This document shows positions 5,016-63,374 of a stretch of DNA of 64,000 bases, one piece after another. The stretch's first letter is position 1; every line of letters begins with the position of its first letter. The notes beneath the pieces are model-generated. The model worked only from the letters and a program-made list of their open reading frames with translations. It made no database searches and was not told the DNA's origin. The position numbers and the translations under genes are program-made. The DNA comes from Eledone cirrhosa (lineage: Eukaryota). The stretch spans positions 10,044,001-10,108,000 of the forward strand of contig OZ024759.1 of NCBI GenBank assembly GCA_964016885.1. The letters run 5' to 3'.

Positions 5016-8000
5016 CTGCAAAATGTAAAATAAATAAATATATAAATATTATAAATATATAAATATTATAAGTATATAAATATCATATATATGCTAGCAT
5101 GGAAGATGGACGTTAAATGATGATATACACGTATATACATATATATATATCACTTAGATGGTGGATGGGTGCTACACGAGAATGCTGAGGATGGCTCTGA
5201 ACATTAATCAGTATACACTGAGGATGAAAAACTCAGAGCTGTATGGGAGCCTCCCAAAAGTCACCTCAAAAGTGACACTGTGGCCCCTACATGGACACAC
5301 TGGAAGCGAAAGACCAAGGTTAACGTATGTTGATGCCCTAAGGACAGACACTGGTCTGTTGGAGACACAGGACATGGCAGCGATAATGAGGGACAGAGAC
5401 CGCTGGAGAGAACTCGTCCATAGATCTCGGGTATTTTACCCACCCTAGAAATATATATATATATATATATATATATATATATATATATATACATATATAT
5501 ATATATATATATAAATTTTGAGTATATGTTGATTGTTTACTGACACCTCAGTATGCAGATTGGAGCACTCAACGAAGTATGCAGGTTGGTTTGTTTACTC
5601 CGGAGTAATGTAAATTAAGTAAGTCAAACATGTAAAATTTGGGTTTGTTTATTATAAATTCTCTGCTATATATATTTCAGTGACAGCTATTATTGACTGT
5701 GACCTCTTCAGGCAGTATGAATTAATGTGAAAAGAACATGGTGTTAAAGTGTGTTCCACTCTGTCAATAAAATCGATATGTCCAGCTCCTGGGTGTGTTG
5801 TTAGTCCCCCGAGGAACTGGAATCATATGCTTCCAGTTCCTCGGAGTTCAAAACCCGCCGAGGTTAACTTTGCCTTGCATCCTTACGGGGTCAATAAAAT
5901 AAAGTACCAGTCACGCACTGGGGTTGATTTAATCGACTCCTCCCCCCCAAAAAATTACTGGCCTTGTTCCCAAAAGTAGAAACCTTTATTATTAAATATT
6001 AAATATTATAACTATATAAATATTTTAAATCTATAAATATCATATATATTTAATTGAGGGGAAAACCCAAAGAAAACACTTCAAATAATAAGCTGAGTGA
6101 ACTGGAGCAACATGAAACAAAGTGTCTTGCTCAAGAACACAATGCACCACTCAGTCCAGTGTGAGCTCAATGTTCTAACCACTAAGCCATGTGCCTATAC
6201 GATGTGTGTGTATGTATATATATATGTATATTAAAATAACAGATTAAAGTTTAAGCAAAGAATCGCTGCTTTCACCCTTAACGGGATCTTCTGAAGATCC
6301 CGTTAAGGGTGAGAGCAGCGATTCTTTGCTTAAACTTTAATCTGTTATTTTAATAAATATTTGCTCTAGGGTTCTTATATATTTGATATATATTTATCCT
6401 TATCGAGCCCTCTTTGGATTTTAGTCTTCACATTTATTATTATTACTATATATATATATATATATATATATATATATATATAATTATTAGAAATGTAAGC
6501 TATCGCCGTATTTTGACTAAAGAAATTAAAGAAATTATTTAGCCTGATAGTGGGGGTGATGTGTTGGTGTAAATGGTAGCACAGTGGTCCGGATAACCAA
6601 AGATGTGGGTTCGACTCCCATGTACGTCAATACTCATCTTTTTCCATTTCTCCGAGGGTTCTTAACCCCACTATAAGGCTAAATAATTTCTTTAATTTCT
6701 TTAGTCAAAATACGGCGATAGCTTACATTTCTAATAATTTCAAACCCGCTCGCTGTTTCGAAAATATTTTAGTCTTCAAATTTATTATTATTACTATATA
6801 TATATATATATATGTGTAAAAGGTAAACAGAAATAACAACACAATCGGTATAGGGAAGGAATATATGATATGCACTGTTCATTTTACTGATGTTTGTGGA
6901 TTGCCCTATGTACTGTACATGCACTTTTTGATGAGTTGTGGTGCACCTGGGCACTGTACACAATATTTCATTATTATTATTATTATTATATCATGACTCA
7001 TACATTGTTCATTTTTCTGACATTTGTACATTATTCTATGTACTATACATGCACCTTTGATGAGTTGTAGTGCACCTGAGCACTGTACACAATATTTCAT
7101 TATTATTATTATTATTATATCATGACTCATACACTGTTCATTTTCCTGACATTTGTACATTATTCTATGTACTATACATGCACCTTTGATGAGTTGTAGT
7201 GCACCTGAGCACTGTACACAATATTTCATTATTATTATTATTATTATATCATGACTCATACACTGTTCATTTTCCTGACATTTGTACATTATTCTATGTA
7301 CTATACATGCACCTTTGATGAGTTGTAGTGCACCTGAGCACTGTACACAATATTTCATTATTATTATTATTATTATATCATGACTCATACACTGTTCATT
7401 TTCCTGACATTTGTACATTATTCTATGTACTATACATGCACCTTTGATGAGTTGTAGTGCACCTGAGCACTGTACACAATATTTCATTATTATTATTATT
7501 ATTATATCATGACTCATACACTGTTCATTTTCCTGACATTTGTACATTATTCTATGTACTATACATGCACCTTTGATGAGTTGTAGTGCACCTGAGCACT
7601 GTACACAATATTTCATTATTATTATTATTATTATATCATGACTCATACACTGTTCATTTTCCTGACATTTGTACATTATTCTATGTACTATACATGCACC
7701 TTTGATGAGTTGTAGTGCACCTGAGCACTGTACACAATAATTTCATTATTATTATTATTATTATATCATGACTCATACACTGTTCATTTTCCTGACATTT
7801 GTACATTATTCTATGTACTATACATGCACCTTTGATGAGTTGTAGTGCACCTGAGCACTGTACACAATATTTCATTATTATTATTATTATTATATCATGA
7901 CTCATACACTGTTCATTTTCCTGACATTTGTACATTATTCTATGTACTATACATGCACCTTTGATGAGTTGTAGTGCACCTGAGCACTGTACACAATAAT

Positions 8001-11000
8001 TTCATTATTATTATTATATATATCTTCTTAGTTTTAGTTTCTTCTGCATCTTTCAACGTATCAAGAAGTCACCAGCAATCACTGTCAGCGGCGGCTTTTT
8101 CATGTCCGTGCCAAGTGATGTTGGCTGCCATCAGGTCTTGTTGGAATGTTCGTCGCTAGGTGGTCCTGGGGCAACCCCCACCTCCATTTGCTGCCAGGTG
8201 AAGTCCAGTTCATTGCTCTTTTCAAGTGTTGTTCATTGGGCAACCGCAGAATATGGCCAGCCAGTCGGCACTAGCTCTCCATGACTATGTAGTGACCTAC
8301 ATTCCGCGGGCTCACATACACTCTCTGTGCGTGATTTGGCTCAGCTCAGCCAATCAGCGCCAGTAGAAGAGAATGTATCCCTACGCACCCTGAGGGAGAA
8401 ATTCCTCGCGGGGATTTGAAGAATCAGCCTCTCGCATCCTGAACTTCCAAGGAATAACACGTACAACATGTAACGGTGAGATTTTGCACTTTGGCCTGCC
8501 TCGGGCCTGGCACAATGGCACATTCCCTTTTGTAACCTTTTTTTATGTTTAACTTCAACCATACAAATTAATAAACATTATTTGTGTTGGATTGGCAGTA
8601 TTGGTAGAGTGTCGGATACCATGCTTTGGCGCATAGAGTTACGGCCCTTGCCATTCTGAGTTCAAATCCCGCCGAGGTTAACTTTGCCTTTCATCCTTAC
8701 GGGGTCGATAAAATAAAGTACCAGTAATACACTGGGTAATTGCTGGCCTTGTGCCTAATGTAGAAACAATTATTTGTGTGGATTGGCAGTATACAATATT
8801 ATATATTGGTAGAGAGTCGGACGCCATGATTTCCAGCATAGTTACGTCCCTTTACGATCTGAGTTCAAATCCCGCCGAGGTTGACTTTGCCTTTCATCCT
8901 TACGGGATTGATAAAATAAAGTACCAGTAATGCACTGGCTAATTGCTGGCCTTGTGCCTAAAGTAGAAACAATTATTTGTGCTACAACAAAAATAAACAT
9001 ACATTTTAAACATACATTTCATCTCTAATTTCTGCTGTTGACATCATTATTATGTTACTCGTGTCCCAATTACATTAATATACTATGCTGCTAAAACTAC
9101 CCTCTGAAGCATGCATGACTCGGCTCTCCACAGGATTTCCTCATTTCACACTCGGTTGTGCCAGGAAACACAAAGGATAATTCGCAGACACCACTTGTGG
9201 AATGCGTTCAGCCGTCTCTCTATCTTTGCCGTGCTCTCCGTGCTCTTCCAGGTTTCACTTGCGTAAAGCACTGTTGGCAGCACGATGCTCTTCTACATCC
9301 TGGTACTGATGCATGAAGACCACCAGACTAGGTGCATCTGCTGGAAAACTGCGGCTCCTTTGTCGATCTGACAGTTGATGTCGAGCTCCTTGTTGTCATT
9401 GTTTGCCAGGATGTTGCCCAGATAGGTGAAGGTATCGACTTCTTCCAGGTCTTGTTGGTTGACTGATCGCTGGACCTGTGTTGTTGGCTGTCCTCATCAC
9501 ATTGGTCTTTTTGGTGTTGATTCTCAGGCCGATCTTTTCCACACTCTCTTGCAGGGATGTTGTTAGGGCCTGCAGATCTGCACTGTCTTCAGCGAATGCC
9601 AGGTTTCTCAGCCTCGACTGGCCTCTCCATGGGATTCCTCAGCCAGGTCCTTCATCTGTTTGACTTATATATATGTGTGTATGTATCATAAATATATGAA
9701 TATTATGAATATGTGCAAGACATGGTCGCATCTATAGAAATAGACTTAAACACTAACAGTTACAGGTTCAGTGGTTTTATTCGCACCAGTCACCAATCTG
9801 GTACTTTGTTAAACCCATGAAAACTAGGCTTTTCTAGAGGTGGCCTTTACTAGCCTCATCATAGTTATGTCACTGGGTTATGAGAGTTTTCTTGGAAAGG
9901 CTTTTCTAGAGGTGGCCTTTACGAGCCTCATCATAGCTATGTCACTGGGTTATGAGAGTTTTCTTGGGAAGGCTTTTCTAGAGGTGGCCTTTACTAACCT
10001 CATCATAGCTATGTCACTGGGTTATGAGAGTTTTCTTGGGAGCTACAGCTGTCACCCATTGCTCCCACTCCCCTGGTTGTTGGTCTGGGGTTGCTTATTC
10101 ATCCGGCAGTGGCCCGCTTATCTCGCAACTAGCCATCATACCTGGTCAATGTATCACTATCCACCACCTGCAGTCAGTAATCAGAAGAAGGGAAGTAGGC
10201 GTAAGAGCAAAACTCGCTATCTTCCATTTGCTGTTCATGAATCTTGGGATATGACCAAAAGAATTTTATCGCGAATAGAAGGGGCCAAAATGGGGTTCCT
10301 CTGAAAGGTCTCGATAGAGTGCGTAGCTCGGAGATCAGAGAGTCACTCAATGTAGAGACACTACTTGTCAGAATTGAGAGATCACAGCTCTGATACTATG
10401 GGCTTGTGGTTAGAATGTCTCAGGAAAGAATGGCTGGACAGATTTTTAAGGGCAAAACAACAACAACAACAACAGCAACAGCAACAGCAACAGCAAGAAG
10501 AAGAAGAAGAAGAAGAAGAAGAAGAAGAAGAAGAAGAAGAAGAAGAAGGCAAAGAAGAAGAAGAAGAAGAAGAAGAAGAAGAAGAAGAAGAAGAAGAAGA
10601 AGAAGAAGAAGAAGAAGAAGAAGAAGAAGAAGAAGGCAAAGAAGAAGAAGAAGAAGAAGAAGAAGAAGAAGAAGAAGAAGAAGAAGAAGAAGAAGAAGAA
10701 GGCAAAGAAGAAGAAGGCGAAGGAGGAGGAGAAGAAGAAAAAGGCAAAGAAGAAGAAGAAGAAAAAGAAGAAGGCAAAGAAGAAGAAAAAGAAGAAGCAG
10801 GCAAAGAAGAAGAAAAAGAAGAAGAAGAAGAAGAAGAAGAAGAAGAAGAAGAAGAAGAAGAAGAAGAAGAAGAAGAAGAAGAAGTTACTTACTGGTTCAT
10901 CTGGTTTCTCGGTGCCCAGAGCAAGTTTATTATCCTGTTTTCTGGTACGTATTTGAAAGTTATATATATGTCCTTTATGGTATAATGCGAGGGAATAGGC

Positions 11001-63030: not shown

Positions 63031-63316
63031 GTAATACAATATTCTTCACCCGTCCTCCTTCTCCAGCCTGCTGTCTGAAGTCTGCTAGAATTAGGAGGTA
63101 GTAATGATTTGCCTGACAAACTATATATCCCCCTAACTACTTATTAAATGAGCAGGAAGATAACTTCACTCAGAGAGTAGAGAGCAGAGTAGCAACATGC
63201 TGGCCCATTCCTCTCTCAGTCAAAAACATAAACACACATTTTTCCCTCTCTTTTTTCTGTGCTTGTTTCCTTAAGGTCTACCACCATTCCGCTGGTATAC
63301 ATCTATTATGCAATGT

Positions 63317-63374
63317 ACACCTGAAGATGTCACCGGGTTATTACACAACCTGGTCACTGAAATGTGCATAGTGT
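63317..63374 (+). ncRNA. Type I hammerhead motif
   Basis: ACAC-CTGAAGA-TGTCACCGGGTT..AACCTGGTCACT-GAAA-TGTGCA-TA-GTGT, then AATAAA. Confidence 0.78.

What the first reader, a model, noticed from the sequence alone, without database searches (positions are those of the whole stretch)
5663..63374. At least 12 different hammerhead-ribozyme motifs in and around one gene, many on the transcribed strand
Seen: CUGANGA/stem II/GAAA motifs at 5663(-), 6291, 14755(+), 19881(both arms), 20763(-), 23671(-), 24976(+), 37943(-), 38549, 39277(-), 41609, 59574(-) and 63317(+). Their stems are unrelated in sequence. Stem III is mostly short and palindromic (ACCATGGT, ACAATTGT, ACGTACGT, AAACACTAGTGTTT), and AATAAA often follows closely. 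Known: Penelope-like element pLTRs carry minimal type I hammerheads with short stem III, proposed to cleave best as dimers. Inference: these are relics of many PLE families. The minus-strand copies are in the adaptor pre-mRNA and could cut introns co-transcriptionally or offer a cleavage/polyA exit.
Basis: partly seen in the sequence, partly recalled or inferred. Interest (0 to 1): 0.75.

Follow-up and report, generated by a model that had tools for sequence, protein, structure and literature searches.

The report
Penelope hammerhead stumps in adaptor introns
The self-cutting-RNA motifs in this gene's introns are mostly real, but they are end stumps of many Penelope-type jumping genes, no denser than in the neighbouring DNA and split evenly between the strands, so they are most likely ordinary debris that rarely cuts the gene's RNA.

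Summary
The motifs are mostly real. The window holds 28 copies in 17 sequence groups, 14 per strand. They are pLTR ends of Penelope-like elements (PLEs); five groups sit in pLTR position beside Hydra-clade ORFs, one of them in the window. Against true genome means it is 1.6 to 2.6-fold, P 0.10-0.20. Only 3 sense copies inside the mapped gene keep a canonical core and a full fold. Palindromic copies are predicted to be buried in hairpins. A cut would fall upstream of AATAAA, so cleavage and polyadenylation exit exclude each other. No RNA data were available. What stands out is genome-wide: at least 108,000 motifs of one subtype, roughly 220,000 in all, head-to-head pairs with a one-sided tail, and a 15,577-copy family with a U4A core. 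The scan noted this bloom before on other DNA of this genome.

The parts
4908..55305 (-). Host gene span that could be mapped: multi-exon SH2 adaptor (BLNK/SLP-76-like). Approximate exons 55233-55305, 52887-52919, 44128-44213, 36796-36901, 29605-29627, 28154-28226, 19274-19295, 19023-19116, about 16681-16752, 10893-11048, 4908-5015. The 5' end was not found.
   Evidence: Splice-site and frame inspection; Pfam SH2 E 2.6e-4; best PDB hit BLNK SH2, E 0.017. No RNA support.
5660..5718 (-). Type I hammerhead, canonical core, stem III AUAUAUAU, predicted cut at 5667; family F5; last intron, sense
   Evidence: E 3.7e-13
6224..6360 (.). Head-to-head palindrome of a U4A-core family; the CUGAAGA at 6291 is made by the junction; tail on the + arm only
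12772..12834 (-).
   Evidence: E 4.4e-16
12990..15011 (+). 5'-truncated young Hydra-clade PLE: 3' part of the RT/GIY-YIG ORF (two frames, to 14503), pLTR and tail, ending in (TA)n; start approximate
14751..14796 (+). pLTR hammerhead of that PLE, U3-A8 core, stem III ACGUACGU; antisense to the gene
19757..19975 (.). Head-to-head palindrome with decayed hammerheads on both arms (cores 19851-, 19881+)
20761..20809 (-). Hammerhead with U4C core and decayed stem II; sense
   Evidence: E 9.3e-5
23669..23751 (-). Long-stem-II hammerhead, stem I out of register; sense
   Evidence: E 0.0077
24972..25017 (+). Short canonical type I hammerhead; antisense
   Evidence: E 6.1e-7
29876..29944 (+).
30448..30564 (.). 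Palindrome of the 41609 family, both arms cut inside stem II; no core
37013..37056 (+).
   Evidence: E 3.6e-7
37939..38019 (-). Best sense-strand candidate: canonical core, 5-bp GC-rich stem II, stem III ACCAUGGU, GUC at 37946; young repeat (40 of 40 scored candidates matched, 96-100%), lying between 163-nt inverted arms
38333..38758 (.). Palindrome with 212-nt arms, centre 3-4 nt upstream of the 38549 core; stem I lost
38751..39108 (.).
39273..39386 (-). Long-stem-II hammerhead with U4C core, stem III ACAAUUGU; sense
41015..41083 (+).
   Evidence: E 1.5e-13
41547..41632 (.). Short fold-back: core half on +, GAAA/GUC half on -; not a whole ribozyme on either strand
57974..58032 (-).
   Evidence: E 2.3e-13
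58635..58693 (+). F5 copy with a broken GAAA, same family as 5711
59369..59447 (+).
   Evidence: E 2e-10
59530..59697 (.). Palindrome with the 59615(-) core in its loop, stem I lost; family lies in pLTR position before a Hydra-clade ORF in L016
63318..63373 (+). Intact type I hammerhead
   Evidence: E 1.4e-6

Best explanation
The motifs are type I hammerheads or their fragments at the ends of repeated elements, present here at the ordinary density of this genome and evenly on both strands; they are most likely 5'-truncated pLTR stumps of Hydra-clade and related Penelope-like retroelements, and likely inert in the adaptor pre-mRNA. Shown: each motif lies about 50-250 nt upstream of a fixed element end, usually at (TA)n. 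Five of 17 groups lie in pLTR position beside Hydra-clade ORFs. About 40% of copies form head-to-head pairs, with a tail on one arm only. Inferred: the PLE enzyme nicks TA-rich DNA and reverse-transcribes from one of two fixed RNA sites, copying the hammerhead first, so even short aborted copies carry it. Pairs most likely arise when both cut strands are primed on the same template, one at each site. In the gene, the sense copies would seldom cut, because most lack a stem or a core base, palindromic ones pair with their own mirror arm, and the rest need a dimer partner or the PLE protein.
For: Density: window 8 vs 6.87 per 64 kb (147 hits in 137 stretches), flank 9.79, resampling P 0.35; strict setting 5 vs 6.54, P 0.62. 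Rescaled to true genome means P 0.20 and 0.10, with the flank denser than the window. Strand: 14/14 in the window, 12/10 in the gene span. ORF links for F10, F1, F3, G59615, G6291 with Hydra motifs. Pairs: 140 of 351 sampled copies; 70 head-to-head, 40 tandem, 9 tail-to-tail. One-sided 3' extension in 72 of 80 testable pairs, of 88. Arm-to-arm distance below the family median in 39 of 48 pairs. Extra 5' sequence on the tail-less arm in 13 and on the tailed arm in 8 of 21 resolved pairs, and on the tail-less arm in 2 of 3 full-length elements. Folding: hammerhead fold 19-101 kcal/mol above the minimum for palindromic copies in 150-nt context, 4-13 for solo copies. Literature: single PLE motifs showed no detectable cleavage (PMC4209133); the anole PLE hammerhead cleaved only with protein, and no RNA-seq reads ended at its site (PMC11167929).
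Against: One subtype pattern is 2.6-fold above the true genome mean in the window (6 vs 2.3; Poisson P 0.03, clump-aware P 0.10). The repeat-library count is 28 vs 16.4 (P 0.08), with a library partly seeded from the window. Twelve of 17 groups have no ORF link in my 1.85 Mb and could be non-autonomous or belong to other clades. Three sense copies (5711, 12827, 38012) look intact. 37 of 88 pairs have a spacer of 15 nt or less, which also fits snap-back. Folding energies are predictions; no cleavage or RNA data were obtained.
Confidence: 0.85

Rival explanations
1. Some sense-strand copies cut the adaptor pre-mRNA in vivo (as monomers, as cross-family dimers through shared palindromes, or with PLE protein) and affect its output.
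For: 5711, 12827 and 38012 keep the canonical core and all three stems. Matching stem III palindromes recur on the sense strand: 5711/58025, 12827/38858, 39379/59615. PLE protein enables cleavage in vitro (PMC11167929).
Against: The matching pairs are 20-52 kb apart, with predicted duplex energies of only -2.2 to -6.4 kcal/mol; two partners carry core changes and one lacks stem I. The strong palindromes (38012 -11.2, 20802 -13.4) have no sense partner in the window. No excess in density or strand. The cut site lies upstream of AATAAA, so a cut RNA would lose the signal.
Confidence: 0.08
2. Sense-strand copies are mildly harmful (cleavage or premature polyadenylation) and are purged from introns genome-wide; this gene just shows the survivors.
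For: In 25 intragenic 10-kb stretches, unpaired copies were 9 sense vs 21 antisense (P 0.043). Retrozymes are under-represented in Xenopus introns (bioRxiv 2026.07.22.740005, passages).
Against: Counting one tandem array once gives 8 vs 14 events, plus 11 two-strand events, P 0.29. Full descriptor hits were 7 vs 7. The window gene is 12 vs 10. Twenty of the 25 stretches come from minus-strand genes.
Confidence: 0.2
3. Insertion mechanism only: the palindromes arise by self-priming or snap-back of one strand, then endonuclease resolution and later deletion at the centre, not by priming of both strands.
For: Arms share private variants; 37 of 88 spacers are 15 nt or less; self-priming is the published proposal (PMC3846280, passages).
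Against: In 13 of 21 resolved asymmetric pairs and 2 of 3 full-length elements each arm holds sequence the other lacks; a simple fold-back cannot give this without large later deletions.
Confidence: 0.3
4. The motifs are chance matches in AT-rich repeats.
For: Rfam finds only one sub-threshold hit; isolated motifs fold no better than shuffles (z from -1.5 to +1.5, 8 of 8).
Against: Reversed controls give 0-1 vs 140-195 hits and 186 vs 107,997 genome-wide. Models built without window sequence find the sites.
Confidence: 0.01

Closest known systems
PLE pLTR hammerheads, min-HHR and palindromic-helix-III variants (Cervera & de la Pena 2014, PMC4209133)
   Same: Type I, short palindromic helix III, long helix II, U3-A8 variant, many sequence families in one genome, mostly single motifs from truncated PLEs, pairs on opposite strands 100-700 bp apart.
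   Different: Scale: that paper reports 2,000-9,000 per genome with its own descriptor; here one pattern alone gives 107,997. Family-wide U4C and U4A cores were not in the parts I read.
Hydra clade of C-terminal EN+ PLEs (Craig et al. 2021, PMC8557442)
   Same: RWK, DKT, CxCX5C linker, CxxC and CxH around the E and N residues, (TA)n targets, canonical hammerhead, inverted 5' copy and one-sided tail.
   Different: ORFs here are about 800-910 aa with insertions; the 3' extension is about 45-170 nt rather than 30-40; no tree against reference Hydra elements was built.
Poseidon PAc of the green anole (Frangieh et al. 2024, PMC11167929)
   Same: Two fixed element ends that define a tail, AT-rich targets, copies that retain the uncut hammerhead.
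   Different: Different clade; the paper does not use 'head-to-head' and does not explain inverted pairs (term search).
Metazoan non-LTR retrozymes (PMC7229834; bioRxiv 2026.07.22.740005)
   Same: Type I hammerheads in short non-coding repeats. Tandem arrays of 310 and 467 nt occur elsewhere in this genome (L038, L087, L206).
   Different: No tandem array in the window. Axolotl holds 126,247 motifs, a similar or smaller number in a genome recalled to be about ten times larger.
Conserved intronic hammerheads of amniotes and the CPEB3 ribozyme (review PMC6765202, passages)
   Same: Self-cleaving motif in an intron.
   Different: Those are single conserved loci (recalled); these are young multicopy repeats with weak stem III.

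Membership tests
Type I hammerhead ribozyme | Core CUGANGA...GAAA...UH, or a covarying C3-G8 pair | tested here: met
   Canonical or U3-A8 at most sites; U4C at 20802 and 39379; broken at 6291, 29883, 38858, 58642, 41609.
Type I hammerhead ribozyme | Three helices, with stem I closing the ends | tested here: met
Cross-family pair counts 88% and 90% paired, 0/500 shuffles, but the rows were chosen by a pairing descriptor, so this is partly circular.
Type I hammerhead ribozyme | Rfam RF00163 gathering score | tested here: not met
   Best window hit 26 bits vs 34; 18 genome matches over the cut-off among 74 scored of 415,510 candidates.
Type I hammerhead ribozyme | Site-specific self-cleavage | not testable with these tools
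   No assay and no RNA reads.
Hydra-clade PLE (window element and linked ORFs) | RT with C-terminal GIY-YIG endonuclease in one ORF | tested here: met
   Full frames of 927-968 codons in L011-L013 with YRDD and YIG motifs read by eye; Pfam gave no hit.
Hydra-clade PLE (window element and linked ORFs) | RWK, DKT, CxCX5C, CxxC and CxH motifs | tested here: met
   All present in L012. DKT in 4 of 4 N-terminal parts (RWR in 3, not matched in L102); CxCX5C, CxxC..E and N..CxH in 4 of 4 C-terminal parts.
Hydra-clade PLE (window element and linked ORFs) | Hammerhead in pLTR, (TA)n target, inverted 5' copy, one-sided tail | tested here: met
   (TA)5 within 500 nt downstream of 17 of 20 window cores examined.
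Hydra-clade PLE (window element and linked ORFs) | Phylogenetic placement within Hydra | not tested
   No named reference sequences were at hand; supplements of PMC8557442 were not opened.
Non-LTR retrozyme | Tandem repeats with a hammerhead in each unit | tested here: not met
   No tandem hammerhead array among the 28 window copies.
Host-conserved intronic ribozyme | Single-copy and conserved at orthologous introns | tested here: not met
   The groups recur elsewhere in the genome. Orthologous introns could not be tested: no relatives are held.

The most novel reading that the evidence does not exclude
With roughly 220,000 hammerheads, this genome puts intact sense-strand ribozymes into most long pre-mRNAs. 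Shared stem III palindromes across unrelated families, abundant PLE or retrozyme RNAs and PLE protein switch some on in trans, making intron cleavage a genome-wide, PLE-coupled layer of RNA processing. A 15,577-copy family spread with a U4A core, either as a slowed ribozyme or as proof that cleavage is dispensable.
Probability: 0.08. Interest if true: 0.7.

Novelty: new member of a known kind. Interest (0 to 1): 0.28.

Why it matters
For this gene it probably does not. As a sample of the genome it shows a very large load of PLE hammerheads: at least 108,000 of one subtype, against 126,247 in all for axolotl (PMC7229834). This gives two direct tests of open questions. First, whether PLE hammerheads matter: sense versus antisense depletion in introns, and a young family with a U4A core. 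Second, how inverted, one-tailed insertions form: thousands of pairs with fixed unequal ends copied from one template.

Tried and rejected
No RNA holder was listed for the SH2 exon; this is no evidence on expression. The idea that the two arms come from two unrelated RNA templates was rejected: arms share subfamily and private variants. In one search the seven F2 'TT' rows are misclassified, because the reference ended before that family's short end; replace them. The 5'-extent columns were contaminated by alignments crossing palindrome centres and were replaced, which left 30 of 88 pairs unresolved. The copy counts were discarded (microsatellite hits; over-strict complexity filter) in favour. 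One tandem-repeat artefact (L080) and several rows were left out of alignments A1 (20 of 22 short rows) and A2 (24 of 25 mid rows plus 5 of 17 long rows). A DNA search with the F1 motif returned nothing because common words are skipped. Pfam found nothing for 144 ORFs or the full PLE protein. A homolog search with the SH2 exon found none. The gene's 5' exons were not found in 60 kb upstream, by eye. No descriptor hit lay within 800 nt downstream of 17 PLE ORF ends. Lunse et al. 2017 is not held, so its dimer data are known to me only through the review PMC6765202. The intragenic strand test covers 25 of 40 planned stretches. I did not look properly for the scrambled-order hammerheads that earlier notes report; 16 leftover core-like sites were only inspected by eye.

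
Full report
Setting. The window is G000:C20:10044001-10108000 of a 3.0-Gb animal genome. Earlier scan notes call it octopus-like; I did not test that. Half the window is tandem repeat. A minus-strand gene runs from at least 55305 to a stop at 4908. One exon matches Pfam SH2 and, weakly, BLNK. 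Exons were placed by splice sites and frames. The 5' end was not found, so the sites above 55305 may or may not be transcribed with it.

Observation. All listed coordinates mark real sequence. A structural descriptor finds 8 full type I motifs in the window and none in the reversed window. Two entries are not ribozymes. At 6291 the core is created by the palindrome junction: the family reads CAGAAGA in 21 of 26 copies covering the core, and has A at position 4 in 24. At 41609 each strand has only half a motif. A repeat library finds 28 copies in 17 groups, 14 on each strand. The stems are not all unrelated; three groups recur in the window.

Density. I took 137 evenly spaced 10-kb stretches across 23 contigs and 170 kb of flank. 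Descriptor hits per 64 kb: window 8, samples 6.87, flank 9.79; strict setting 5, 6.54, 8.66; relaxed 11, 9.11, 10.16; resampling P 0.32-0.62. A whole-genome exact count of one subtype gave 107,997, with 186 in the reversed control. My samples over-read that pattern 1.38-fold. Corrected, the window is 1.6-fold (descriptor, P 0.20) to 2.6-fold (pattern, clump-aware P 0.10; Poisson 0.03) above the genome mean, and the flank (7.9 per 64 kb) exceeds the window (6). The neighbourhood is somewhat rich; the gene is not special. The corrected genome total is about 215,000-235,000 full motifs, an extrapolation.

Origin. 12990-15011(+) is the 3' part of a young PLE: 124 of 124 scored candidates matched at 88-100% identity, and three loci hold open frames of 927-968 codons. 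The protein has the Hydra-clade motifs listed in PMC8557442. Its pLTR carries the 14759 hammerhead with the published U3-A8 core. Four other window groups (F1, F3, G59615, G6291) lie 198-284 nt upstream of the start of different Hydra-type ORFs elsewhere. Twelve groups have no ORF link in my data.

Anatomy. Of 351 sampled copies, 140 are in head-to-head pairs. In 72 of 80 testable pairs one arm runs at least 25 nt further at the 3' end; the other typically stops at (TA)n, and both arms ran straight into a dinucleotide repeat in 0 of 88. Arms are closer to each other than to the family median in 39 of 48 pairs, so they share a template. In 13 of 21 resolved asymmetric pairs the tail-less arm is the longer at the 5' end, as in L011 and L013. 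This fits priming of both cut strands at the two start sites described for the anole PLE (PMC11167929). It is an inference; snap-back with later deletion remains possible, since 37 of 88 pairs are near-perfect hairpins.

Effect on the gene. In the mapped span 12 copies are sense and 10 antisense. Only 5711, 12827 and 38012 keep a canonical core and all stems; 39379 has U4C, which lowers activity in vitro (PMC3088659, passage). Palindromic copies would pair with their mirror arm: the hammerhead fold lies 19-101 kcal/mol above the minimum, against 4-13 for solo copies. Dimer partners with matching palindromes are far apart and weak. AATAAA/ATTAAA does follow often (13 of 22 vs 11% background), but it lies 3' of the cut, so a cut 5' fragment would lose it. 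An uncut copy could still act as an intronic polyA site; this is untested. In 25 intragenic stretches from myosin and kinase genes, insertion events were 8 sense, 14 antisense and 11 both (P 0.29); unpaired copies were 9 vs 21 (P 0.043) before one array was collapsed. Depletion is possible but not shown.

Papers, and what I saw. PMC4209133: parts 1-2 of 4 (results, discussion). PMC11167929: parts 1-2 of 4 (whole main text) and a term search. PMC8557442, PMC7229834, PMC3846280, PMC6765202, PMC3088659: passages. bioRxiv 2026.07.22.740005: part 1 of 5 and passages. No supplements were opened; those of PMC8557442 may list octopus Hydra elements and their hammerheads. Searches for hammerhead + Penelope-like + octopus, hammerhead + cephalopod, Penelope + twin priming and hammerhead + U4A showed, by their listings, no paper on a hammerhead load of this size in such a genome, on twin priming in PLEs, or on a natural U4A family. 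The library lacks most subscription journals.

Verdict. Real motifs, correct family guess, ordinary for this genome. The residual interest is genome-wide and was noted before by this scan; I reached the Hydra assignment, the scale and the pair anatomy before reading those notes, except that PMC3846280 came from them.

Noticed in passing
window 6224-6360; L146:8003-9000; genome-wide: A pLTR family with a fixed U4A core (CAGAAGA), 5-bp stem I and a non-palindromic 5-bp stem III: 15,577 exact 34-nt matches vs 60 with U4. The hammerhead fold is 2.8 kcal/mol above the minimum. It lies 198 nt before a Hydra-type ORF.
   Followed up: partly
window 20802, 39379, 59615 family; L016, L089, L113, L138, L161: U4C cores are family-wide in some groups (7 of 9 copies of the 59615 family).
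   Followed up: partly
tails of F1, F3, F5, F6, G41611, G59615: The tails begin with a similar small hairpin (CTC...GAGT/CGC) just behind the short end, across unrelated families; a candidate RT start signal, seen by eye. Earlier notes e1-8673755 and e1-8671399 report the same.
   Followed up: no
window 37664-37826 and 38120-38282: 163-nt inverted arms (99%) enclose the 38012 hammerhead repeat, so in the pre-mRNA it would sit in the loop of a long hairpin.
   Followed up: no
window 63880-64000 and L016:348-1600 (-): A second, broken Hydra-clade PLE ORF begins just beyond the window, interrupted by a copy of the 63321 family.
   Followed up: partly
L038, L070, L087, L206: Tandem hammerhead arrays (310- and 467-nt units) with a central inversion, retrozyme-like; L206 lies inside a myosin gene.
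   Followed up: no
window 58796-58977, 50599-50783, 58197-58479, 6482-6739: Other long inverted repeats without a hammerhead; 6482-6739 encloses a tRNA-like sequence (Rfam 42 bits, 6558-6629). Many intronic hairpins would be A-to-I editing substrates.
   Followed up: no
window 8025-8572: CCAAT-box and promoter-like sequence inside the last intron, next to a LINE RT remnant at 9150-9640.
   Followed up: no
window 28154-28226 and 36796-36901: Two adaptor exons share a similar acidic ending, suggesting exon duplication; 22-33-nt micro-exons lie at 19274, 29605 and 52887.
   Followed up: no
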